In this document: one piece after another, positions 5,051 to 46,353 of the stretch
Layout: each line of letters opens with the position of its first letter
Position numbering within the stretch: the first letter of the stretch is position 1
Notes under the pieces: model-generated
Told to the model about the DNA's origin: nothing
Database searches by the model: none
The model's input: the letters and a program-made list of their open reading frames with translations, nothing else
Translations under genes and position numbers: made by a program
DNA from: Patescibacteria group bacterium
GTDB taxonomy: Bacteria; Patescibacteriota; Patescibacteriia; JAQUQO01
Length of the DNA stretch: 64,000 nt
Assembly (NCBI GenBank): GCA_028716045.1
Contig: JAQUQO010000001.1
Span: 192,942 to 256,941, forward strand
Direction of reading: 5' to 3'

Positions 5051-6640
5051 ATGAATGAAGTAATAAAAATTCCAAAACCGATTGTTCTCATTATTCTTGA
5101 TGGTTGGGGAGTGGCTCCGCCGGGCGCGGGCAATGCCATTACCGAGGCCGATACCCCCAATTTTGATAAAATGGTTAATTCATATCCAGCCATGGTTTTG
5201 AAAGCTTCCGGCGAGGTGGTTGGCTTGGGTGAAGGGGAGGCGGGTAATTCGGAAGCCGGTCATGCTACTATCGGCAGCGGGCGGATTTTTTATAAAGATT
5301 TAGTACGGATTAGCAAAACGATAAGGGAAGGCGTTTTGTTAAAAAACAAAAAATTACTCGGCGCTTTTAAACATGCCGCAAAACATAATTCCGACCTTCA
5401 TTTAGTCGGGCTTTTAAGTGACGGCGGTAAGGAAAGCCACAAAGAACATCTTTACGCCCTTTTAGATATGGCGCGCTCCGTGGGTTGGCAAGGAAAAATT
5501 TTTATCCATGCGCTTTTAGATGGTCGGGATGTGGCTTTTAATTCCGGAGAAGATTTTATCAAGGAATTACTGCAAAAGATGCCGCCGGAAGCGAAAATCA
5601 CTTCTCTTTGTGGGCGTTCTTACGCCCTAGACCGCGATGGCCATTGGGAGAAAACCGAAAAAGCTTATCGGGCCATCAGCGAAGGGAAAAGCGAGAAAAA
5701 TTTCAACGACGCTATCTCCGCCATTGAAAATTTTTATGAAAATAAAATTTACGATGAAGATATCCCGCCAATTGTTTTTACTGATGCTCAGGGGACGCCG
5801 TTGGGAAAGATAAAAGATAATGATGCGGTAATTTTCTTTAATTTCGGAATTAGCCGTCTTGAACAATTAATAAAAGCGTTTGCTGATAAAAGATTCAACA
5901 GTTTTAAAAAACAGCCGTTAAAAAATCTTCATTTGGTTTCTTTTTGGAGCCGAGACAGGGGGCTGGCGCTTTCTTTGCCTTTCCCCCGTGAAGTCGCCAG
6001 ACATTATTTAGCCAAAGAATTAAACGAGGCTGGATTGAAGCAGCTTCATGTTGCCGAAAGCGAAAAGTACGCCCACGCCACTTATTATTTTGACGCTTTT
6101 AACGAGGAAAAGGTAAAGGGAGAGGAGTGGGAGCTAATTCCTTCCAAGGGTTCCACGTGTATTGAAGAGCCGGCGATGAGCGCTCGGGAAATAAAAGACA
6201 GAGTGATACGCGCCATTAACAAAGGAGAAGAGGATTTTATAGTTCTAAATTTTGCCAACGCCGACATGCTCGGCCATTACGGGGATTTGGAGGCGGCCAA
6301 AAAGGGGATTGAAGTTTTGGATAAATGCATCGGAGAAATAAAAGAAACAGTTTTATCTAAAGATGGGGTGTTATTTATTGTTGGTAGCCATGGCAATGCC
6401 GAAGAAATTTTACATAGCGGCACCGGCCAAACGAAAAAGACCCATACCGCCAATCCGGTTCCTTTTCTGATTGTCGGCGATGCTTACGAAGGCAGAACCG
6501 GCGGAGTGGAAGTGCCCGGTGGAGACCTTTCTTTGGTAAAACCAGTCGGGAGTTTAATTGACGTCGCCCCGACCATTTTGAAGGTGATGAATCTAAAAAA
6601 GCCGAAAGAAATGAAGGGCAAATCTTTACTTAATAAATAA
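5051..6640 (+). CDS. gpmI: 2,3-bisphosphoglycerate-independent phosphoglycerate mutase (iPGM), paralog 2 (more canonical)
   Basis: IVLIILDGWGVAPPGAGNAITEADTPNFDKM...GNSEAGHATIGSGRIF; 529 aa. Confidence 0.9.
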   Translation: MNEVIKIPKPIVLIILDGWGVAPPGAGNAITEADTPNFDKMVNSYPAMVLKASGEVVGLGEGEAGNSEAGHATIGSGRIFYKDLVRISKTIREGVLLKNKKLLGAFKHAAKHNSDLHLVGLLSDGGKESHKEHLYALLDMARSVGWQGKIFIHALLDGRDVAFNSGEDFIKELLQKMPPEAKITSLCGRSYALDRDGHWEKTEKAYRAISEGKSEKNFNDAISAIENFYENKIYDEDIPPIVFTDAQGTPLGKIKDNDAVIFFNFGISRLEQLIKAFADKRFNSFKKQPLKNLHLVSFWSRDRGLALSLPFPREVARHYLAKELNEAGLKQLHVAESEKYAHATYYFDAFNEEKVKGEEWELIPSKGSTCIEEPAMSAREIKDRVIRAINKGEEDFIVLNFANADMLGHYGDLEAAKKGIEVLDKCIGEIKETVLSKDGVLFIVGSHGNAEEILHSGTGQTKKTHTANPVPFLIVGDAYEGRTGGVEVPGGDLSLVKPVGSLIDVAPTILKVMNLKKPKEMKGKSLLNK

Positions 6641-6650
6641 TCAAATATTT

Positions 6651-7100
6651 ATGAAAGTTAAAGACATAATGAAAAATGACATTGTTTCTATCAAAGTGGG
6701 CGCTACGCTTAAAGACGTAGCTCAGACATTGTTTAAAAAGCAGATTAGCGGGATTTTAGTAATGGCTGGCGAAAAATTAGTTGGTTTTGTTTCAGAAAAA
6801 GACATTTATCGTTTGCTTTATCCGCAGTATAATGATTATTATGAAAATCCGGAATTATCTACTGATTACGAGGATATGGAGAGTCGCGCTCAAGCGGTTA
6901 AGGATAAAAAAGTGGAAGAATTTATGAAAACGCCGGTGATTACACTCCGCCCTGATGACGCAGTAATGAGGGCCGGAGCTATTATGCTTTCCCGCAAACT
7001 AAATCGTTTGCCGGTGGTTGACGAGGAGGGGAAAGTTTTAGGAATAGTGAGCCGTCGCGATATTTATCACGCGATATTTAAAAAAGAATTAGGGATATAA
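6651..7100 (+). CDS. CBS-domain pair protein
   Basis: Two CBS-like segments (ISGILVM..., LPVVDEEGKVLGIVSRRDI). Confidence 0.7.
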   Translation: MKVKDIMKNDIVSIKVGATLKDVAQTLFKKQISGILVMAGEKLVGFVSEKDIYRLLYPQYNDYYENPELSTDYEDMESRAQAVKDKKVEEFMKTPVITLRPDDAVMRAGAIMLSRKLNRLPVVDEEGKVLGIVSRRDIYHAIFKKELGI

Positions 7101-7123
7101 ATTTTTAAGTTCAATTTATTATT

Positions 7124-7984
7124 ATGCCGGAGCTTCCGGAAGTGGAAACTATACGCCGTGATTTAGATTTGAAGTTAAGGGGTAAAAAGATAAGGGATAT
7201 CGCCACCGATAATCCCAAAATGTTTACCCCCAATTTTAATTCTGTCAGAAGGAAGGTAAAGGGCCGTGAGATTAAAAAGATAGAAAGACGCGCTAAAATG
7301 TTGATTATGGGATTAAACGGCGGGATTTTTCTTCTTTTCCACTTGAAAATGACCGGCCAGCTGGTTTATGTCCGCCAAGCGAAAATTACCGCCGGCGGGC
7401 ATCCGATCACGGGGGAGAGAGATTTGCCGAATAAATTCACACACGCCATTTTTTATTTTAATGATAAAAGTATTTTGTATTTTAATGACGTGCGGAAGTT
7501 CGGTTATATAAAATTGGTGGACGGAAAAGGATCGGAAAAAATTGAGGCGGGGATAGGGATAGAACCATTGGAGAAAGAGTTCACTTTGAAGAAATTTATT
7601 GAGCTTGTAAAAAAATATCCCCGCGGAAAAATCAAGCAAGTTTTAATGAGGCAGGAGCTGATTGCCGGCATTGGCAATATTTATTCTGACGAGATTTGTT
7701 TTTTTGCCAAGGTGAAACCAGCGCGGACAGTGGCGAGTTTGTCGGCAGCGGATTTTAAAAAACTTTTTCAGGGCATAAAAAAGATTTTACAGTCAGCCAT
7801 TAAGAATCGCGGGACTTCTTTCAACACCTACGTAGACGCGAGAGGGGAAAAGGGTAATTTTGTGCCCTTGCTTAAAGTTTACGGGCGGGCCGGAGCCAAG
7901 TGCCGTCGCGGGGACGGGGGAGTCATTAAAAAAATAAAGCTAGGCGGCAGAAGCTCGTGTTTTTGCCCGGTTTGCCAAAAATAG
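7124..7984 (+). CDS. mutM: Formamidopyrimidine-DNA glycosylase
   Basis: N-terminal MPELPEVE and C-terminal zinc finger CRRGDGG...CFCPVCQ. Confidence 0.9.
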   Translation: MPELPEVETIRRDLDLKLRGKKIRDIATDNPKMFTPNFNSVRRKVKGREIKKIERRAKMLIMGLNGGIFLLFHLKMTGQLVYVRQAKITAGGHPITGERDLPNKFTHAIFYFNDKSILYFNDVRKFGYIKLVDGKGSEKIEAGIGIEPLEKEFTLKKFIELVKKYPRGKIKQVLMRQELIAGIGNIYSDEICFFAKVKPARTVASLSAADFKKLFQGIKKILQSAIKNRGTSFNTYVDARGEKGNFVPLLKVYGRAGAKCRRGDGGVIKKIKLGGRSSCFCPVCQK

Positions 7985-8050: not shown

Positions 8051-9208
8051 ATGGTCAAACATATTTTAATACATTACAGTGAAATTGGGTTGAAAGGGGG
8101 CAATCGGGATTTTTTTGAGAAGAAACTAATCTGCAACATCCAAATGGCCCTCGGCGATTTTGATGTTAGGATTAAGAATATTTTTGGGAGATTGCTCTTG
8201 ACTGGAGAATGGCAAGATGAAACGGAAGTGAGTGAAAAGTTATCGCGCGTTTTTGGTATTGCTTATTTTTCTTTTGCTTATTTGGTTAGGTCCGATTTGG
8301 AATCTATTAAAAAAGAGTCGCTGCGTCTTTTAAAAAATCGGGATTTTAAAACTTTTGCCGTGCGAGCGCGGCGGGGTACTAAGAATTTCCCGCTGAAATC
8401 TTTGGAAATAGAGCGGGAAGTCGGCGGTTATATTTTTGAATCTCTTGGTGATAAAAAAGTTAATCTAAAAAATCCGGATATCACTTGTCATATAGAAATA
8501 GTCAACGATTACGTTTTTATTTATTTTGACAAAATAAAAGGTCCGGGCGGATTGCCTGTGGGTACCGCCGGCAAACTAGTTTCCCTTATTTCCGGAGGAT
8601 TTGATTCGCCCGTGGCCTCCTGGCAGATGATGCGGCGCGGGGCGGAAATTATTTTTGTCCATTTTCACAGTTACCCGAATACTTCCAAGGGTTCCTTGGA
8701 AAAAGTCAGAGAGTTGGTTAAAATTTTGAGCCATTATCAGTTTGGCGCCAAATTATATCTTGTGCCGTTTTTAGATATTCAAAAAGAGATTTTTGCCAAC
8801 GCGCCGGAAAAATTAAGGATTGTTTTATATCGCCGGATGATGTTGCGATTAGCCGAAGCCATAGCCCAAAAAGAAAAAGCTTTAGGGCTTGTCACCGGCG
8901 ATAATTTGGGCCAAGTGGCCTCGCAGACATTGGAAAATATGTTGGCCATCGGCGCGGCGGTGTCATTGCCGATTTACCGGCCGCTTGTTTCCTGGGATAA
9001 GGAGGAAATTATAAACTTGGCTAAAAAAATCGGCACGCACGATATTTCCGCCGAACCATTTGACGATTGTTGCTCGCTGTTCGCACCGCGCCATCCGGAA
9101 ACAAGAGCGGATTTGAAAGAAGTGGGAGGGGCGGAAAAAAATTTGAATATTAAAGAAATAGTTGAAAAAACAATAGGGGAGATAGAAATAAGAGATATTG
9201 GATATTAA
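8051..9208 (+). CDS. thiI: tRNA 4-thiouridine synthase (ThiI; THUMP + PP-loop)
   Basis: ISGGFDSPVA PP-loop and overall ThiI architecture; 385 aa. Confidence 0.85.
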   Translation: MVKHILIHYSEIGLKGGNRDFFEKKLICNIQMALGDFDVRIKNIFGRLLLTGEWQDETEVSEKLSRVFGIAYFSFAYLVRSDLESIKKESLRLLKNRDFKTFAVRARRGTKNFPLKSLEIEREVGGYIFESLGDKKVNLKNPDITCHIEIVNDYVFIYFDKIKGPGGLPVGTAGKLVSLISGGFDSPVASWQMMRRGAEIIFVHFHSYPNTSKGSLEKVRELVKILSHYQFGAKLYLVPFLDIQKEIFANAPEKLRIVLYRRMMLRLAEAIAQKEKALGLVTGDNLGQVASQTLENMLAIGAAVSLPIYRPLVSWDKEEIINLAKKIGTHDISAEPFDDCCSLFAPRHPETRADLKEVGGAEKNLNIKEIVEKTIGEIEIRDIGY

Positions 9209-9268
9209 AATTAGTTGGTTCAATCTTAAAGATTGAACCAACTACTGTAATTTAGCTGTAATTTTAAA

Positions 9269-9326
9269 CTTGACCCGTCGGTCGCGACCGACGGGTCTTG
9301 ACGAAATTGTCAAAATGTGATATATT
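9269..9326 (+). promoter_or_regulatory. Hairpin-promoter module, copy A: cTTGAC-[gacccgtcggtcgcgaccgacgggtc]-TTGACG-17-TATATT
   Basis: Perfect 26-bp palindrome 9272-9297; -35 at 9298-9303; -10 at 9321-9326. Confidence 0.6.
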
Positions 9327-9329
9327 GAA

Positions 9330-9935
9330 ATGTTTTGTACATTACAGCCTGGAGACGTGACAAGTCTGCGGAATTACAAAAAGCTTTCTGATGTTCGCAA
9401 GGTAGTTCGCGGTCAAGCAAAAATCGTGTCCAAGGAGCCTCGTTGGCGCGAAAAAGACGGCGTTATCTATTTCTCGGTGACCTCTGACGGCACAACCGGC
9501 GAAGAGTGGATTAGACGCTTGATAAAGAAAGGCTTCCGTGTGAGCAACTATGCCGAGGACGTGTTATGCTCGTCGGACTTTAAGCCCACAAAAGGCGTCA
9601 CGACCGAGATTGCGGTGCTCAGGGGAAGGCTGTTCAATGACAACGAGCGCTTCACGAAGAATATTTGCGCCGAGGCAGACCGCCGCCACCTGACCGAACC
9701 CAACGCCGAAATCGCCTGTCTCATCCGCGAGATGTTTACGGATGGGGAGCTGGAAGCCATGGGGTTTCGGTGGATTGTTGCCATGCACAAACCCATCAAA
9801 GATTCCTTTGGCATTCAGCGCCTTCTGAGTGTGCACCAGCACGATGATGGTTGTTGGTTGCGTACGTGCTCCGACAGTCGTGGCGACAAGTGGGGTCGTG
9901 ACGATGGTTTCGCGTTCGTTGTCCGCAAGTGGTAG
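9330..9935 (+). CDS. Hypothetical protein encoded in a GC-rich (~53% GC) island; probable horizontally acquired gene. Start uncertain.
   Basis: Sharp GC and codon-usage shift relative to the flanks; several spurious long overlapping ORFs on other frames. The ATG lies only 4 nt after the -10. Confidence 0.5.
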   Translation: MFCTLQPGDVTSLRNYKKLSDVRKVVRGQAKIVSKEPRWREKDGVIYFSVTSDGTTGEEWIRRLIKKGFRVSNYAEDVLCSSDFKPTKGVTTEIAVLRGRLFNDNERFTKNICAEADRRHLTEPNAEIACLIREMFTDGELEAMGFRWIVAMHKPIKDSFGIQRLLSVHQHDDGCWLRTCSDSRGDKWGRDDGFAFVVRKW

Positions 9936-9992
9936 TTCTTTGGGCTAGTTCTTTAGGCCCCTAATGCGCAGTTTAAAGAAGGAAAAATTTTA

Positions 9993-10030
9993 TTAAAAAA
10001 CCGCTTGATAATTTGAGCGGTTTTTATTAT
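9993..10030. terminator. Bidirectional rho-independent terminator
   Basis: A-run / aaccgct...agcggtt / T-run between convergent genes. Confidence 0.6.
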
Positions 10031-10038
10031 TTTATTTT

Positions 10039-10473
10039 TTATCTCAATAGCATCCACCAATAAGTGACGATAAATCCTAAGGCCAATCCGGCAGTGATTT
10101 CCAGCGGCGTATGGCCCAAGCGGGTGGTGATTTCCGGAAATTGACTTTTATCTCTGACGTCTGCGATTAATTTTTTAAGAACTATGCCGTGATAACCCAC
10201 GCGGCGGCGCAGTCCGGCGGCGTCGCGGATAACGAGAATGGCAAAAATCAGGGCAATGGCAAAGGTAGTGGAATTAAGGCCGTCGGCAATTCCTACCCCG
10301 GTGACCAGCGCTCCGACAAAAGCGGCGTGGGAAGAAGGCATTCCGCCGTAGACAAACGGGTCTTTCCAGGTTTTTTTGCCCTGGATTGTTTCAATTAAAA
10401 TTTTTAATACTTGCGCGCCGAAACCAGCGATTAAGGTGGCGATTAAAATGTCGTACATAATTAGTATTTTCAA
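10039..10473 (-). CDS. Divergent PAP2-family membrane protein (DUF212/YuiD-like)
   Basis: 144 aa, multi-TM, PSSHAA motif. Confidence 0.6.
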   Translation of the reverse strand: MKILIMYDILIATLIAGFGAQVLKILIETIQGKKTWKDPFVYGGMPSSHAAFVGALVTGVGIADGLNSTTFAIALIFAILVIRDAAGLRRRVGYHGIVLKKLIADVRDKSQFPEITTRLGHTPLEITAGLALGFIVTYWWMLLR

Positions 10474-14463: not shown

Positions 14464-15465
14464 ATGAAGTTTTTAGCCAAGCTTGGGCGGATTATTTTTA
14501 TCTTCGCGGTTCTTTCCATCATTTACGGACTCATTTTAATTTATGCGCCGTCACGTCCCGGGGAGGAGGCAAGTTTTATGATTAAGGAAGGCAGCGGAGT
14601 TAACAAAATTAGCCAAGATTTAAGTAACGCTGGGCTTGTCAGAAGCAAGCTTGTTTTTGAATTTTTTATTTGGGCGAAGGGGTTGGAAACAAATATCCAG
14701 GCCGGCGAGCATCGCTTAAACAAGGGATTAAGCATAAAAGAATTGACCAGCAAATTGGTTTCAGGGAGTTCTTTAAGCAATGAGCGTGTCATCACTTTAA
14801 TTGAGGGCTGGACTTTGCGTGATATCGGAGAATATCTTGAAAAAGAAGGAATTTCCAGGGCAGAGGATTTTTATAAATCCGCAGAAGCTGATTTGAGCGG
14901 CGAGTATGATTTTTTATCAAGCAAACCCACGGGCGTGGGTCTGGAAGGATATGTTTTTCCGGATACTTACAGAATTTATAAAAATTCCTCCGCGGAAGAG
15001 GTTATTAAAAAAGCGCTTAATAATTTGGGGCAAAAATTAACTACGGAACTTCAGGGGCAAATAAAGAATCAAGGCAAAACCGTTCACGAAATTATGACGC
15101 TGGCGAGTATTATTGAAAAAGAAGTTAAAAGCGACGCGGATAAAAAAATGGTCGCTTATCTTTTTGGTCGGCGGTTAAAAATCGGTATGCCGTTGCAATC
15201 CGATGCCACCGTCAATTACATCACTCATAAAAATACGGAGAGGCCGACATACGATGATATTAATATCGCCTCTCCTTACAATACCTATCGTTATCGCGGT
15301 TTACCCCCGGGGCCGATTTGCAACCCGGGTTTAGCGGCCATTGAAGCTGCGATTAACCCGACGCCGAATGACTATTGGTATTTTTTAACGACGCCCGATG
15401 ACAAAGTTATTTACAGCGTCACTTACGAAGAGCACTTGGCTAATAAAAGTAGATATTTAAAATAA
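14464..15465 (+). CDS. mltG: Endolytic murein transglycosylase MltG (YceG family)
   Basis: N-terminal TM, PYNTYRYRGLPPGPICNPG motif. Confidence 0.85.
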   Translation: MKFLAKLGRIIFIFAVLSIIYGLILIYAPSRPGEEASFMIKEGSGVNKISQDLSNAGLVRSKLVFEFFIWAKGLETNIQAGEHRLNKGLSIKELTSKLVSGSSLSNERVITLIEGWTLRDIGEYLEKEGISRAEDFYKSAEADLSGEYDFLSSKPTGVGLEGYVFPDTYRIYKNSSAEEVIKKALNNLGQKLTTELQGQIKNQGKTVHEIMTLASIIEKEVKSDADKKMVAYLFGRRLKIGMPLQSDATVNYITHKNTERPTYDDINIASPYNTYRYRGLPPGPICNPGLAAIEAAINPTPNDYWYFLTTPDDKVIYSVTYEEHLANKSRYLK

Positions 15466-19519: not shown

Positions 19520-19577
19520 CTTGACCCGTCAGTCGCGACTGACGGGTCTTGACAAATCCTTCAAAACATGCTATGAT
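19520..19577 (+). promoter_or_regulatory. Hairpin-promoter module, copy B: cTTGAC-[gacccgtcagtcgcgactgacgggtc]-TTGACA-17-TATGAT
   Basis: Perfect palindrome 19523-19548; consensus -35 and -10 with 17-bp spacing. Confidence 0.6.
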
Positions 19578-19583
19578 ATAACG

Positions 19584-19980
19584 TTATAGTGCCTGGAAAA
19601 TTTAGTTGGCTAAGATTAGCGGAAAGCACTCTTTTGGGATGAAAATTTGGCTATAAATAGAGAAAATATAGCTAAGTTTCCATCCCGAGAGGGATGCCCC
19701 TTCGGGGGTCAAAGCTTATGTTTTGTCTTTTCTGCTATTCAGCCTTTTCCGGCTCTATAACGGATTTGCACATTACTTAAGCCCACAAAATTTTCCCCCC
19801 GAGAAGGAGGGTCAAAATTTAGAAAAGAACGTAGAAAGAGAGTAAAAAAACAATATAGAAATTTAAAGGAAACATTTTTTCATGAGAGTTTTCTCTCACA
19901 AAAAAATATTTTAAGCTTTTTAAGCTTAATAGTTTCCCCTCCAAATTTCTCTTACTCTCCTTTTCCTCTACGTTCTTTTT
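19584..19980 (+). ncRNA. Candidate structured non-coding RNA of unknown class, driven by module B
   Basis: About 400 nt with no ORF of 60 aa or more on either strand. Consensus promoter directly upstream. Local hairpins with GNRA (catccc-GAGA-gggatg) and UUCG (cccc-TTCG-gggg) loops. Long inverted repeat 19815-19845 / 19945-19978. Confidence 0.3.
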
Positions 19981-23247: not shown

Positions 23248-23315
23248 ATGACTGGTCGGGCGAAATTTAAGCCGGGGGTTGATTATAGCGTCTAAAATGA
23301 CGCTTTTTTAAATCG

Positions 23316-23400
23316 CTTGACCCGTTGGTCGCGACCGATGGGTCTTGACCAGTCAGTCGCGACTGACTGGTCTTGACAGATTTTTAGGGTTTGTTATAAT
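23316..23400 (+). promoter_or_regulatory. Hairpin-promoter module, copy C. Tandem double hairpin (23319-23344 and 23347-23372) sharing TTGAC units, then TTGACA-16-TATAAT.
   Basis: First hairpin preserved by two G-T wobble pairs on the + strand. Second hairpin perfect. -10 at 23395-23400. Confidence 0.6.
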
Positions 23401-27839: not shown

Positions 27840-28250
27840 ATGTTTTTATTTATTAATACAGCCGAAGAAGAGAGATTACTGGCGGGGCTGATTTCCGCTA
27901 CTGGAACAATTTTGAAAGCCGCGGAAATTAAGGAAGGTGCGGAGAGAAGGGAATCGTTGTTAGGGTTGGTTGATAAATTATTATTGGCCAGCAAATTTTT
28001 TTCCGAAAAAATAAAAGGAATTATCGTAGTGACCGGTCCGGGAAGATTTAGCCGTTTGCGGTCAGCTGTTGTTTTAGCCAATACTTTATCTTTCGCTTTG
28101 GGTATCCCCGTGGCTGGAATGAATTTGGAGGAAGTGAAAAATCAAAGCGGTCTTATTAAAAAGGGCATAGCCAAGATTAAAAAAGGAGGGGATACGGTAG
28201 TCGCCCCTTTCTACGGCAAAGAGCCAAACATCACCCGCCGGAAATCTTGA
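27840..28250 (+). CDS. tsaB: Short TsaB (YeaZ)-like protein (t6A biosynthesis partner)
   Basis: IIVVTGPGRFSRLRSAVVLANTLSFALGIPVAG matches the TsaB N-domain GPGSFTGLRIGI..A.GLA region. Confidence 0.55.
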   Translation: MFLFINTAEEERLLAGLISATGTILKAAEIKEGAERRESLLGLVDKLLLASKFFSEKIKGIIVVTGPGRFSRLRSAVVLANTLSFALGIPVAGMNLEEVKNQSGLIKKGIAKIKKGGDTVVAPFYGKEPNITRRKS

Positions 28251-28303
28251 CACGTCGGTCGCGACTGACGTGTCTTGACAAATTCAGCTTTTTATGCTAT
28301 ATT
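28246..28303 (+). promoter_or_regulatory. Hairpin-promoter module, copy D: cTTGAC-[gacacgtcggtcgcgactgacgtgtc]-TTGACA-17-TATATT. The tsaB stop codon lies inside the first TTGAC.
   Basis: Palindrome 28249-28274 closed by one G-T wobble on the + strand; -10 at 28298-28303. Confidence 0.6.
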
Positions 28304-31056: not shown

Positions 31057-32067
31057 ATGTCAATTAGTCCAAAAATATTAATAAGTTTAGTAACCTGGAA
31101 TAGTAAAAAATTTCTACCCTTTTGTTTACCCGCTATTTATAGCCAGACGTATAATAATTTTCAGTTAGTTGTTTTAGACAACGATTCTTCTGACGGGACA
31201 GCGGATTTTGTTTTGAAAAATTATCCAGAGGCGGAATTAATCAGGAACGGTAGAAACGAAGGATATGTGGCGCATAATAGAAATATAGAATATGGGCTAA
31301 GAAATATGGGAGAAGGATTTGAATATGTTTTAGTGATGAATCCTGATATTGTGATGGAGCTAGATTGTTTGGGTAAATTGGTGGAGGCGATGGAGGGAGG
31401 AGAGAAGTTGGGTAGTGTTGGCCCGAAGTTGAAGCGCTTTGAATTTGGCGAGGACTTGAAAAATATAGTTAAAACCGATATAATTGATTCTACTGGTTTA
31501 AAAATGTTCCGTTCTCGCCGAACCGTTGACCGTGGGGCCGGAGAAATTGATAATAGCCAATTTGATGGTCAAAAAGAGGTTTTTGGAATTTCCGGAGCCT
31601 TAGCGCTTTACCGTCTAAACGCCCTACAAGGGGTTAGGTTGGCTGAAGGAGAGTATTTTGATAAAGATTATTTTATGTATAAAGAAGATGTTGATTTGGC
31701 TTGGCGGTTGAAGAATAGGGGTTGGGGGGCGGAGTTGGTACCAAAAGCAGTTGCTTATCACTATCGCGGTGCCGCGGGTGGTGAAAAAGTTGGCGCAATT
31801 AATATTATTAAAAATAGAAAAGAAAAGTCAAAATTAGTTAATTATTATTCTTACAAAAATCACCTTTTGACTTTAGTAAAAAATGAGCGGTGGGGCGACT
31901 TTTTGAAAAATTTTCCTTTTATATTTTGGTACGAATTAAAAAAGTTTTTATATATTTTATTTTTTGAATGGCCGACTCTCAAAGCGATTCCCGAATTCTT
32001 TAGGCAATTGCCAAACTCTTTAGAAAAGAGAAGATTAATATTTTCGAAATATGCTAAAAATAAGTAA
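31057..32067 (+). CDS. Family-2 glycosyltransferase
   Basis: LVVLDNDSSDGTADFV ... typical GT-A fold motifs. Confidence 0.8.
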   Translation: MSISPKILISLVTWNSKKFLPFCLPAIYSQTYNNFQLVVLDNDSSDGTADFVLKNYPEAELIRNGRNEGYVAHNRNIEYGLRNMGEGFEYVLVMNPDIVMELDCLGKLVEAMEGGEKLGSVGPKLKRFEFGEDLKNIVKTDIIDSTGLKMFRSRRTVDRGAGEIDNSQFDGQKEVFGISGALALYRLNALQGVRLAEGEYFDKDYFMYKEDVDLAWRLKNRGWGAELVPKAVAYHYRGAAGGEKVGAINIIKNRKEKSKLVNYYSYKNHLLTLVKNERWGDFLKNFPFIFWYELKKFLYILFFEWPTLKAIPEFFRQLPNSLEKRRLIFSKYAKNK

Positions 32068-32704
32068 GATATTTTTTCCCCTGGCAGTGCTATTTCTAAT
32101 TGGGTCATTTTTTTGGTATGTGATGGCACCATTTTTTTATTTTATTTATAGAATTGATAAGTTTATATTTATATTAACAATTTTACTGGTGATAGTTTTT
32201 ATTTTTTTATTTATTAATAAGAATTGCAAACGATATGTGAGAGAAAACTTGGCCATATCAATATTGACAATATCATCAGTTATTTTGATATTTTTAACTT
32301 ATTCTTTTAGTAGCTACAATTATTTTACACGAGAAGTGGGCATCATAAGAAATGTCTTTCAGTATAATTTGTCAATTGCAAATTATATTCTTAATAATCA
32401 GACAAAATTGTTATATAATAATTATTTTCATACCGACATATTATTTAATAATTCTAGTCGTATTACCGATAATATGTCAGATAAATGTCAGTACAAGTTT
32501 TTGGTTACTCTTTCTAAAATGGAGGGGGCTAATAAAATTAATGATTCCATCCATTTTATATACAATTTATTAATGGGGTCGGGGTGGAATACTAATCAAA
32601 AAAAGAATGCTGACCTCGCCTCAGACCAATATTATGAAAGTTTTTTTAATGATATAAAAGAGATACAGAGTAATATATTGTATTTAACCGAAAATTGTCA
32701 TTAA
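32051..32704 (+). CDS. Hypothetical membrane protein in an extremely AT-rich segment
   Basis: 217 aa, N-terminal TM helices; GC far below the window average. Confidence 0.5.
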   Translation: MLKISKIFFPLAVLFLIGSFFWYVMAPFFYFIYRIDKFIFILTILLVIVFIFLFINKNCKRYVRENLAISILTISSVILIFLTYSFSSYNYFTREVGIIRNVFQYNLSIANYILNNQTKLLYNNYFHTDILFNNSSRITDNMSDKCQYKFLVTLSKMEGANKINDSIHFIYNLLMGSGWNTNQKKNADLASDQYYESFFNDIKEIQSNILYLTENCH

Positions 32705-46026: not shown

Positions 46027-46097
46027 CTCGGGGGGTTCGTATAATGGTAGTACAGGGGTCTCACCCGTCAGTCGCGACTGACGGGTGTCTCCAAAAC
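46027..46097 (+). pseudogene. Partial 5' copy of tRNA-Trp (acceptor through anticodon loop) with a 25-bp GTCGCGAC-core hairpin (46063-46087) inserted in the anticodon loop
   Basis: ctcggggggttcgtataatggtagtacaggggtctc + acccgtcagtcgcgactgacgggtg + tctccaaaac; the flanking tc(tc) is duplicated. Confidence 0.6.
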
Positions 46098-46101
46098 TTT
46101 T

Positions 46102-46353
46102 ATGTATTATATTTATATTCTACATATAGAAGGGATTAAGGGTAAAAATTTTTATATTGGTTATACTGCGGATTTGAAAAATAGACTTAAGGAACATTTA
46201 CTAGGGAGAGTTAGAACAACCAGAGGTAGAAACCCAAAATTAATTTATTTTGAAGCTTATGGTGGTAAATATCTAGCTTTAAAAAGAGAAAAAGGTTTAA
46301 AAAATAGTGGTTCCGTTTATAATGCCTTGTTGAGACGTTTAAGTTTAAAATAA
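46102..46353 (+). CDS. Small GIY-YIG nuclease-superfamily protein (YhbQ/UPF0213-like)
   Basis: YYIYILH..GIKGKNFYIGYTADLKNRLKEH..G.....RGR.P.L.Y.E......AL..E..LK matches the YhbQ-type GIY-YIG pattern. Confidence 0.7.
   Translation: MYYIYILHIEGIKGKNFYIGYTADLKNRLKEHLLGRVRTTRGRNPKLIYFEAYGGKYLALKREKGLKNSGSVYNALLRRLSLK

What the first reader, a model, noticed from the sequence alone, without database searches (positions are those of the whole stretch)
9330..9935. GC-rich (~53%) foreign-looking gene driven directly by a hairpin-promoter module
A 606-bp ORF with GC content and codon usage sharply different from its neighbours; the flanks are ~38-40% GC.

It is bounded by module A upstream and a bidirectional terminator downstream. 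It produces several spurious overlapping ORFs, which is typical of a GC-shifted segment.

The product has no motif I can recognise. The ATG lies only 4 nt after the -10, so the mRNA would be leaderless or the true start is internal.

This looks like recent horizontal acquisition, with the promoter supplied by the mobile hairpin module.
Basis: seen in the sequence. Interest (0 to 1): 0.65.

Follow-up and report, generated by a model that had tools for sequence, protein, structure and literature searches.

The report
Stand-alone DGR variable-protein gene
The GC-rich ORF is a real gene from a large Patescibacteria family whose C-terminal tips are hypermutated by diversity-generating retroelements; this copy sits alone without its retroelement, and its GC excess is shared by the whole family, so it does not indicate recent import.

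Summary
ORF 9330-9935 is the most GC-rich of 61 ORFs in the window (GC 0.53, GC3 0.64; means 0.42 and 0.44). A strong sigma70-type promoter precedes it and a bidirectional terminator follows it.

It is not an RNA gene. It belongs to a very large Patescibacteria protein family (2,226 clusters at 50% identity) with no Pfam or NCBIfam model. The family is a target of diversity-generating retroelements (DGRs). In 43 of 83 copies from other genomes, a template repeat lies about 330 nt downstream, usually with Avd and reverse transcriptase (RT) genes beside it. Of 764 repeat mismatches, 679 lie at template adenines.

The window copy shows the same adenine-site scrambling in its last ~42 codons. However, it has no template repeat, RT or Avd within 64 kb, it lacks the family's conserved 3' flank, and it has a 1-nt deletion at the repeat end. 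It is most likely a stand-alone, fixed copy. A remote active target is not excluded.

The GC excess is a family trait: 86 of 86 loci, mean +13 points, tracking host GC, while Avd and RT in the same cassettes are host-like. It therefore does not indicate recent import. It comes mainly from a preference for C-ending codons, which remains unexplained.

The parts
9212..9244 (.). Inverted repeat (15-bp stem) directly after the thiI stop codon; terminator-like end of the upstream gene
   Evidence: terminator-like site on both strands; 8051-9208 = ThiI
9272..9297 (.).
   Evidence: 5 sites in the window against 0 expected. Substitutions are symmetric, which keeps the palindrome intact.
9298..9326 (+). 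Sigma70-type promoter TTGACG - 17 nt - (TGa)TATATT
   Evidence: 10 of 12 matches plus the TG extension. The same -35/-10 layout follows the palindrome at 19525 and 28251; at 23321 only the palindrome and TTGAC are within the aligned stretch.
9330..9935 (+). Protein-coding gene, 201 aa, member of a Patescibacteria family of DGR variable (target) proteins
   Evidence: 773 and 2,226 homologues; 55-67% identity; homologues linked to TR, Avd and RT; no RNA family; fold z-score -0.14
9330..9443 (+). N-terminal segment (residues 1-38), variable in the family and about 24 residues shorter than in the closest homologues; start codon uncertain (ATG 9330 or GTG 9357)
   Evidence: alignment; start candidates; low pLDDT for residues 1-20
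9444..9800 (+). Conserved core (residues 39-157) with motifs TSDGTTG, NAE(V/I)ACLIRE and MHxPI
   Evidence: invariant and near-invariant columns; pLDDT 93-98
9801..9928 (+). Equivalent of the DGR variable repeat (VR), residues 158-199, carrying the footprint of adenine-directed mutagenesis
   Evidence: at 29 columns where TRs have A, the window keeps A at 13 (45%). TRs keep A at 93%, DGR-linked VRs at 45%. At conserved non-A columns the window matches the consensus at 55 of 66.
9918..9935 (+). Aberrant 3' end. A 1-nt deletion relative to the family consensus GTC-TCG-CAA-GT turns the tail ...VVSQV... into ...VVRKW-stop
   Evidence: gap in the window row at the VR end
9936..9995 (+). 3' flank that lacks the conserved sequence found downstream of DGR-linked family members (the position of the known DGR target-recognition hairpin)
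   Evidence: best hit to any DGR-linked flank is 19 bits; shuffled controls give mean 20, maximum 28; only a weak hairpin.
9996..10025 (.). Bidirectional intrinsic terminator shared with the convergent DUF212/PAP2 gene (10039-10473, minus strand)

Best explanation
The ORF encodes a soluble ~23-kDa protein of a very large Patescibacteria-specific family. The family serves as the variable (target) protein of diversity-generating retroelements (DGRs).

How the family works (shown in other genomes). The last ~128 nt of the gene form the variable repeat (VR). A template repeat (TR) lies about 330 nt downstream, followed by avd on the opposite strand and a reverse transcriptase (RT). TR RNA is reverse-transcribed with errors at adenines, and the cDNA replaces the VR. 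This rewrites roughly 16-20 codons (my count from the TR consensus) on an otherwise constant scaffold, presumably a ligand-binding surface.

The window copy (shown). It has the scrambled-adenine VR, and it has its own strong promoter and terminator. It has no TR, RT or Avd within 64 kb. It also lacks the conserved 3' flank and has a 1-nt deletion at the VR end.

Inferred (about 60%). This copy is no longer a DGR substrate. It is a fixed, expressed variant.

GC excess (shown). It is a property of the whole family and specific to the target gene. About 40% comes from amino-acid composition and about 60% from a preference for C-ending codons. It is not a mark of recent import. The cause of the codon preference is unknown.
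For: Real gene and large family:
- 773 homologues at E<=0.01 with 55-67% identity.
- 2,226 clusters at 50% identity in 1.84 billion representatives.
- Core motifs are invariant.
- The AF2 model is confident with a deep alignment (pLDDT 87.4, pTM 0.80).

DGR link:
- The best non-self homologue is P0002 (61% identity). Its VR 6533-6660 and TR 7006-7133 differ at 21 positions, all at TR adenines, and bAvd and RVT_1 lie next door.
- 43 of 83 non-redundant copies have an adjacent TR. Of 764 mismatches, 679 (89%) are at TR adenines.
- tblastn with the L001 RT and Avd detects RT in 33 and Avd in 43 of the 86 loci examined; where both are found the order is constant: target(+), TR(+), avd(-), RT(+).

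Window VR is diversified: A is retained at 13 of 29 TR-A columns. TRs retain 93% and linked VRs 45%.

Window copy is stand-alone:
- No repeat of the gene or VR anywhere in the window.
- No RT or Avd by tblastn. The only weak hit is YceG.
- The 3' flank scores at random level.
- 1-nt deletion at the VR end.
- The sequence, including the VR, is identical in the MAG and in assemblies of two separate sequencing runs, and contigs pass through the VR.

GC is a family trait.

Not viral: 1 locus in IMG/VR and none in GenBank phages.

Literature: targets of the Patescibacteria DGR clade typically have no recognisable domain or transmembrane segment (PMC8144416). Efficient homing needs an IMH (the homing-initiation sequence at the VR 3' end) and a hairpin just downstream of the VR (PMC3240598).
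Against: - Only 64 kb of an ~812-kb contig could be read, so a DGR elsewhere in the genome that acts on this copy is not excluded.
- The DGR target-recognition element has never been defined experimentally for Patescibacteria DGRs. Absence of the conserved flank is therefore indirect evidence of inactivity.
- The three identical assemblies come from one study and are clonal (0 differences in 9.2 kb). Consensus assemblies also hide minority VR variants.
- The C-type-lectin-like fold expected of a DGR variable protein was not demonstrated. The best Foldseek hits have E of 0.03-0.19 and TM-scores of at most about 0.27.
- The GC and codon signature has no tested explanation.
Confidence: 0.75

Rival explanations
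1. The window copy is an active remote target. A DGR (TR, Avd, RT) elsewhere on the ~0.8-Mb chromosome, more than 9 kb upstream or more than 54 kb downstream, still rewrites 9801-9928 in trans.
For: - The ORF is intact, with its own strong promoter and terminator.
- The VR is scrambled to the same degree as DGR-linked VRs.
- 27 of 37 stand-alone family copies keep the 3' flank typical of DGR-linked copies.
- In one MAG (VMFZ01), the stand-alone copy L074 matches the TR of the DGR-linked copy L081. All 17 mismatches in the VR body are at adenines.
- Non-adjacent and remote targets are known for other DGRs (PMC5758913).
Against: - The window copy is among the 10 of 37 stand-alone copies whose 3' flank has no similarity to DGR-linked flanks.
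- It has a 1-nt deletion at the VR end.
- Its match at conserved non-A columns is lower than usual (83% against 92%).
- The VR is identical in three assemblies.
- In the 2018 survey, CPR DGRs tended to have a single target, and remote targets more than 100 kb away were seen only in another lineage (PMC5758913).
Confidence: 0.3
2. One reading: the gene was recently acquired from a GC-richer donor and was placed behind, or captured by, a mobile hairpin-promoter element.
For: - It has the highest GC and GC3 in the window.
- The family has no conserved synteny.
- The N-terminus is about 24 residues shorter than in the closest homologues, and the promoter abuts the ATG, as expected after a rearrangement.
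- The non-coding 3' flanks of some family members are up to 98% identical between MAGs labelled as different candidate phyla. This hints at lateral spread within the radiation.
Against: - The GC excess is seen in 86 of 86 loci and tracks host GC.
- avd and RT in the same cassettes are host-like or more AT-rich.
- The bias is codon-specific: NNC is raised, GGG and GCG are lowered, and GAA/GAG is unchanged. It is not a uniform GC shift.
- The closest relative is only 61% identical and comes from another AT-rich Patescibacterium.
- The flanking genes are ordinary housekeeping genes, with no integrase or transposase.
Confidence: 0.07
3. The ORF is spurious, and the GC-rich segment is a structured non-coding RNA gene between a promoter and a terminator.
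For: GC-rich islands with a promoter directly in front and a terminator behind are typical of RNA genes in AT-rich genomes. Several overlapping ORFs are present.
Against: - No Rfam family matches, even at permissive thresholds.
- The folding energy equals that of shuffled sequence (z = -0.14).
- Hundreds of protein homologues show an amino-acid-level conservation pattern.
- The structure model is confident.
Confidence: 0.01

Closest known systems
DGR variable proteins with a C-type-lectin fold (Mtd of Bordetella phage BPP-1, TvpA of Treponema denticola, archaeal AvpA, Thermus TaqVP)
   Same: - The VR covers the last ~40 codons of the gene.
- A TR lies nearby with adenine-only mismatches, with Avd and RT next to it (family level).
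- The variable codons derive mostly from AAC/AAT/GAC in the TR.
- The lists of weak Foldseek hits are dominated by C-type lectin domains.
   Different: - No sequence similarity to the Pfam families that cover these proteins or to any PDB chain of that kind.
- The fold match is not significant.
- The protein is small (~200 aa), soluble and single-module, and is neither a phage tail fibre nor a lipoprotein.
- The window copy has no TR, RT or Avd nearby.
Targets of the Patescibacteria-restricted DGR clade ('clade 2' of Roux et al. 2021, PMC8144416; 'CPR set' and unclassified VR classes UVR1-6 of Wu et al. 2018, PMC5758913)
   Same: Same host group; cellular rather than viral; no recognisable domain or transmembrane segment; a single adjacent target in the typical cassette.
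   Different: - I could not map this family to a named UVR class or protein cluster, because the supplements are not held.
- Those surveys start from the RT, so they do not list stand-alone copies such as this one. In my sample, at least 30 of 83 copies have no TR although 2 kb or more of downstream sequence is available.
Non-adjacent or remote DGR targets (Treponema denticola and others; PMC5758913)
   Same: A family member located away from any RT or TR. One same-genome pair in this family (L074 and L081) fits a shared TR.
   Different: For the window copy no cognate TR is known, and the 3' flank that accompanies DGR-linked copies is missing. Activity in trans is therefore doubtful.

Membership tests
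DGR variable (target) protein family | Full-length homology to proteins whose 3' end is a VR paired with a TR | tested here: met
   61% identity over 96% of its length to P0002. P0002's VR and TR differ at 21 positions, all at TR adenines. 43 of 83 family copies have such a TR.
DGR variable (target) protein family | VR sequence shows adenine-directed diversification | tested here: met
   The window keeps A at 13 of 29 columns where TRs have A. TRs keep 93%, linked VRs 45%. It matches the consensus at 55 of 66 conserved non-A columns.
Functional DGR target locus (this copy) | A cognate TR with differences only at adenines | tested here: inconclusive
   None within the 64-kb window. The rest of contig JAQTRY010000001.1 could not be read. 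The genome is not in the searchable genome collection.
Functional DGR target locus (this copy) | DGR reverse transcriptase and Avd accessory gene | tested here: not met
   tblastn with the family-typical RT and Avd finds nothing in the window. These proteins are 54-70% identical to the L001 query across the family's cassettes. The only weak hit is YceG. This applies to the window only.
Functional DGR target locus (this copy) | IMH at the VR 3' end followed by a hairpin/cruciform element (PMC3240598) | tested here: not met
   The 3' flank has no similarity to the flanks of DGR-linked copies (19 bits, equal to shuffled controls). There is a 1-nt deletion at the VR end. Only a weak hairpin lies before the terminator. 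Caveat: this element has not been defined experimentally for Patescibacteria DGRs.
C-type-lectin-fold DGR variable proteins | CLec fold that carries the VR | tested here: inconclusive
Recently transferred (foreign) gene | Composition deviates from the host while the family elsewhere matches its hosts; donor-like near-identical copies exist | tested here: not met
   The deviation is family-wide (86 of 86 loci) and tracks host GC. The nearest relative is 61% identical.
Structured non-coding RNA | Match to an RNA family, or folding energy beyond shuffled controls | tested here: not met

The most novel reading that the evidence does not exclude
The C-ending-codon and GC signature is confined to the target gene. 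It is absent from avd and RT in the same cassettes and absent from the host's ribosomal-protein genes. It may therefore be a functional requirement or by-product of being a DGR target in Patescibacteria, for example selection on the target's DNA or mRNA rather than on its protein. If so, it would give a composition-based way to find DGR targets without an RT.

Stand-alone copies that have lost the recognition flank, like this one, would then be 'frozen' DGR-selected variants, kept and expressed from a promoter type that this genome also uses for rplJL. That would be a route from hypermutation to a fixed binding protein.
Probability: 0.2. Interest if true: 0.55.

Novelty: new member of a known kind. 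Interest (0 to 1): 0.35.

Why it matters
- It turns a "foreign-looking hypothetical gene" into an identified element: a DGR variable-protein gene in a group where such proteins are thought to mediate interactions with hosts or phages.
- It shows that a GC island in an AT-rich Patescibacteria genome need not indicate horizontal transfer.
- Surveys that start from the RT miss a sizeable class of stand-alone copies. At least 30 of 83 copies here have no adjacent template repeat.
- About a quarter of the stand-alone copies have also lost the 3' flank that accompanies active cassettes.
- The family (more than 2,000 clusters at 50% identity) has no Pfam or NCBIfam model and would merit one.
- The target-specific codon signature is an open question that can be tested on existing data.

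Tried and rejected
- RNA-gene hypothesis: Rfam at gathering and permissive thresholds and folding against shuffles were all negative.
- Curated protein libraries: Pfam, PHROGs, NCBIfam and PADLOC gave nothing.
- PDB by sequence: the only hit is a repeated ~35-aa beta-hairpin motif in a phage Ig-like protein (9ncf_S). Each repeat has an individual E of 0.04 or worse. I treat it as a weak lead, not homology.
- Structure: the first AF2 model from 25 sequences was unusable (pLDDT 49.7). The second, from 115 sequences, was good.
- Cognate TR: a degenerate VR-derived pattern found nothing in the species-representative genomes, not even the VR itself, so the genome is not in that collection.
- Hairpin-promoter module: no match in JGI metagenomes.
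- Candidate RT: the weak tblastn hit at 14719-15024 is YceG.
- Adenine avoidance across the whole gene: rejected. A3 and T3 are reduced equally outside the VR.
- Plain GC pressure or GC-biased gene conversion: disfavoured, because GGG and GCG are depleted and GAA/GAG is unchanged.
- Host-optimal codon usage: not supported. In this window rplJ/rplL and enolase have an NNC fraction of 0.26-0.30 against 0.59 for the target.
- Phage origin: 1 locus in IMG/VR and none in GenBank phages.
- Literature: Paul et al. 2017 (PMC5436926) and the Wu et al. supplements are not held.

Full report
**1. The observation**

The ORF 9330-9935 (+, 201 aa) is present as described.
- Its GC is 0.533 against 0.413 for the window.
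- It has the highest GC and the highest GC3 of 61 ORFs of at least 100 aa (z about +2.9 and +3.3).
- Four alternative-frame ORFs of 47-92 aa overlap it.
- Upstream lies a 26-nt perfect palindrome (9272-9297). It abuts a promoter, TTGACG-17-(TGa)TATATT (9298-9326), the best promoter match in the region.
- Downstream, the hairpin 9996-10025 has an A-run before it and a T-run after it. It serves the convergent gene pair.
- The neighbours are housekeeping genes: Fpg and ThiI upstream; DUF212/PAP2, a CAP-domain protein and PolX downstream.

**2. It is a protein gene, not an RNA**

A GC island between a promoter and a terminator in an AT-rich genome could be an RNA gene.
- Rfam finds nothing, even at permissive thresholds.
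- The segment folds no better than shuffled sequence (z = -0.14).
- In contrast, the translation has 773 homologues at E<=0.01 with 55-67% identity.
- A profile search of 1.84 billion representatives finds 2,226 clusters at 50% identity, 777 of them below 1e-30.
- Sources that name an organism call them Patescibacteria: Parcubacteria/Paceibacteria lineages such as Taylor-, Falkow-, Nomura-, Uhr-, Wolfe-, Vogel-, Harrison-, Azam- and Moranbacteria.
- The alignment shows a variable N-terminus of about 35 residues and a conserved core from W39 to F196. Core motifs are TSDGTTG, NAE(V/I)ACLIRE, MHxPI and GFAF.
- No curated library has a model for the family.

**3. What the family is**

The genomic context of the best non-self homologue (P0002, 61% identity) shows a bAvd gene and an RVT_1 reverse transcriptase (RT) next to it. 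The last 128 nt of that gene are repeated 473 nt downstream at 84% identity. All 21 differences lie at adenines of the downstream copy. This is the defining signature of a diversity-generating retroelement (DGR): the template repeat (TR) is copied into the variable repeat (VR) with errors at adenines.

I then collected 80 further loci from species-representative genomes.
- 43 of 83 non-redundant copies have a TR about 330 nt downstream of the stop codon.
- 679 of 764 TR/VR mismatches (89%) are at TR adenines.
- tblastn with the L001 proteins detects RT in 33 and Avd in 43 of the 86 loci examined. Where both are found the order is constant: target(+), TR(+), avd(-), RT(+).
- Apart from RT, Avd and the TR, no neighbouring gene family recurs in more than 7 of 82 loci. 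The chromosomal position is therefore not conserved.
- The family is essentially absent from viral collections.

This fits published descriptions. One DGR clade is restricted to Patescibacteria, and its targets typically have no recognisable domain or transmembrane segment (PMC8144416). Several CPR VR classes remain unclassified (PMC5758913).

**4. The protein**
- No 19-residue window is hydrophobic enough for a signal peptide or membrane helix (maximum Kyte-Doolittle 0.64). Only 2 of 115 family members have such a window.
- With a 115-sequence alignment, AlphaFold2 gives a confident model (pLDDT 87.4, pTM 0.80). It has a small alpha/beta part (residues 39-108), then two to three helices and a beta-sheet. 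The sheet's last strands (163-171, 174-181, 192-198) carry the VR.
- Foldseek against PDB and BFVD gives no significant match (best E 0.19 and 0.03; TM-scores at most about 0.27). The weak hits are overwhelmingly C-type lectin domains.
- A PDB sequence hit to a phage Ig-like protein rests on a short repeated beta-hairpin motif and is only a lead.

**5. The window copy**

Its VR equivalent is 9801-9928 (residues 158-199).

| Sequence class | A retained at the 29 TR-A columns | Match at conserved non-A columns |
|---|---|---|
| TRs | 93% | 93% |
| DGR-linked VRs | 45% | 93% |
| Stand-alone VRs | 43% | 92% |
| Window | 13 of 29 (45%) | 55 of 66 (83%) |

(All values.) The window VR therefore bears the footprint of adenine mutagenesis. 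However, several features set this copy apart.
- The window has no second copy of any part of the gene, and no RT or Avd. The one weak hit is YceG.
- The window tail reads GTT GTC CGC AAG TGG TAG. Relative to the family consensus ...GTC TCG CAA GT..., one base is missing. The usual tail ...VVSQV... becomes ...VVRKW-stop.
- In DGR-linked copies the 110 nt after the VR are conserved, with short hairpins such as GGGAC-TTCA-GTCCC. Of the 37 stand-alone copies that could be scored, 27 share this flank (30-168 bits) and 10 do not. The window is one of the 10 (19 bits; shuffled controls give mean 20, maximum 28).
- In the Bordetella phage system, a homing-initiation sequence (IMH) and a hairpin just downstream of the VR are needed for efficient homing (PMC3240598).
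- The gene and 9.2 kb around it are identical in the NCBI MAG (GCA_028711565.1, contig JAQTRY010000001.1) and in assemblies of two separate sequencing runs. Contigs run through the VR without breaking.

Together these points favour a copy that was diversified in the past and is now fixed. This is an inference, which I put at about 60%. The alternative is a remote target of a DGR elsewhere on the ~0.8-Mb chromosome. It cannot be excluded, because only 64 kb could be read and the genome is not in the searchable collection. One same-genome pair in the family (L074 VR against L081 TR) fits a shared TR: all 17 mismatches in the VR body are at adenines. Remote copies tied to a DGR therefore do occur in this family.

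**6. The GC excess**

It is not peculiar to this genome.
- In all 86 loci the gene is GC-richer than its flanks (mean +12.9 points, range 1.7-23.6).
- In 32 complete cassettes the non-VR part is +11 points and the VR +19 points. The avd and RT genes a few hundred bases away are -3 and -4 points.
- Target GC tracks host GC (r = 0.61, slope 0.75, intercept +0.21). RT GC tracks it without a positive offset (r = 0.83).
- For the window gene, host coding GC is 0.421. The amino-acid sequence with host codon usage would give 0.464; the observed value is 0.535. About 40% of the excess is therefore amino-acid composition (rich in R, D, C, W, T) and about 60% is synonymous.

The synonymous part is codon-specific.

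| Measure | Target, non-VR part | Flanking ORFs |
|---|---|---|
| Third-position C | 0.40 | 0.21 |
| NNC over NNT (two-fold codons) | 0.62-0.80 | 0.27-0.47 |
| AAG / (AAG+AAA) | 0.62 | 0.30 |
| GGG among Gly codons | 0.06 | 0.16 |
| GCG among Ala codons | 0.10 | 0.27 |
| GAG / (GAG+GAA) | 0.39 | 0.36 |

- GGC, GCC, CTC, CCG and CGT are also raised.
- In the VR, third-position A falls to 0.045. This is expected, because invariant codons of a TR must avoid adenine.
- Outside the VR, A3 and T3 fall equally, so adenine avoidance does not explain the rest.
- A uniform GC pressure (foreign origin or GC-biased conversion) does not fit the depletion of GGG and GCG.
- Host-optimal codon usage is not supported. 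In this window rplJ/rplL and enolase have an NNC fraction of 0.26-0.30 against 0.59 for the target.
- Nucleotide identity between loci is higher for the target core (73%) than for the RT (61.5%) in 336 of 351 pairs. This is consistent with constraint at synonymous sites.
- The cause remains unexplained.

**7. Promoter and start codon**

The palindrome-plus-promoter module occurs at five sites in the window (0 expected by chance), with symmetric substitutions that preserve the palindrome. The sites are:
- before this gene;
- before an ORF-less ~270-nt stretch at 19580-19850;
- in tandem before the L10 leader and rplJL;
- before a 121-aa ORF with no Pfam hit;
- 17 nt before a small GIY-YIG ORF that precedes tRNA-Trp.

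It is therefore a recurrent promoter element of this genome. I could not test whether it is mobile; the pattern has no match in JGI metagenomes.

With the -10 ending at 9326, transcription would normally start near 9332-9334. This estimate rests on general knowledge of sigma70 promoters. That position is at or just past the ATG at 9330. The next in-frame start, GTG 9357, has GGAG only 2 nt upstream. Homology with P0002 and P0088 begins at residue 9, so both starts are compatible with the alignment. The window protein is about 24 residues shorter at the N-terminus than those homologues, which would fit a rearrangement that put the promoter directly in front of the gene. TSS mapping is required.

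**8. Verdict**

The gene is identified as a DGR variable-protein family member, which is a known kind of system, in an unusual stand-alone and probably fixed state. The interpretation as recent horizontal acquisition is not supported by composition, because the composition is a family-wide, target-specific trait.

Novelty is modest. This is a new member of a known kind, with two by-products worth following up: the size of the stand-alone class and the unexplained target-specific codon signature.

Noticed in passing
window 9272-9326, 19523-19580, 23300-23392, 28249-28300, 46062-46101: A recurrent module: a 26-nt perfect palindrome (GACCCGTCRGTCGCGACYGACGGGTC) joined to TCTTGAC and a -10 box 17 nt further on. 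There are five sites, one of them tandem, and substitutions are symmetric. It precedes the DGR-target gene, an ORF-less stretch, the L10 leader/rplJL, a 121-aa ORF and a GIY-YIG ORF. It could be a regulator binding site or a REP-like element. It has no exact match in JGI metagenomes, and Logan contigs break in this spacer.
   Followed up: partly
window 19580-19850: About 270 nt driven by a copy of the promoter module, with no ORF longer than 40 aa and GC-rich hairpin-like stretches. No Rfam family matches. It is a candidate unannotated non-coding RNA.
   Followed up: partly
window 46102-46353: An 83-aa GIY-YIG domain ORF starts 17 nt after a degenerate copy of the palindrome and lies immediately upstream of tRNA-Trp. 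Here the '-10' of the module falls inside the ORF's first codons.
   Followed up: no
window 32051-32704: ORF of 217 aa with GC 0.257, the low-GC outlier of the window (about 3.9 sd below the mean).
   Followed up: no
L021 8001-8585, L060 8001-8486, L077 560-1105: In these cassettes the target gene's 3' end runs straight into the sequence that normally follows the TR and then into avd. No separate TR is present. A retention at TR-adenine columns is 0.64-0.66 in L021 and L077, between VR-like (0.45) and TR-like (0.93); L060 is VR-like (0.38). These are probably VR/TR recombinants that deleted the spacer, leaving single-repeat DGRs.
   Followed up: partly
L065 325-993 and 2577-3293: Two paralogues 1.6 kb apart, next to nusG-rplK. 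The second has a divergent N-terminal half (40% identity to the window protein) and defines a subfamily of its own (283 hits). Their C-terminal halves are similar to each other without adenine bias.
   Followed up: partly
L015, L066, L079, L016, L019, L045 (about 110 nt after the target gene): The non-coding 3' flank of the target gene is 94-98% identical between MAGs labelled as different candidate phyla. This is far above the coding identity of the neighbouring RT. It implies either strong functional constraint (a target-recognition element) or recent lateral spread of cassettes.
   Followed up: partly
window protein residues ~30-60 (9417-9509): The beta-hairpin motif G-x-I-x-F-x-V-T-S-x-G-T-T-G-E-x-W resembles a motif repeated four times in a phage 'immunoglobulin-like domain protein' (PDB 9ncf chain S). 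The summed E-value is 2.6e-8, but each repeat alone scores E of 0.04 or worse.
   Followed up: partly
window 4761: A single-base difference between the window and the NCBI MAG contig JAQTRY010000001.1 over 19.9 kb compared.
   Followed up: no
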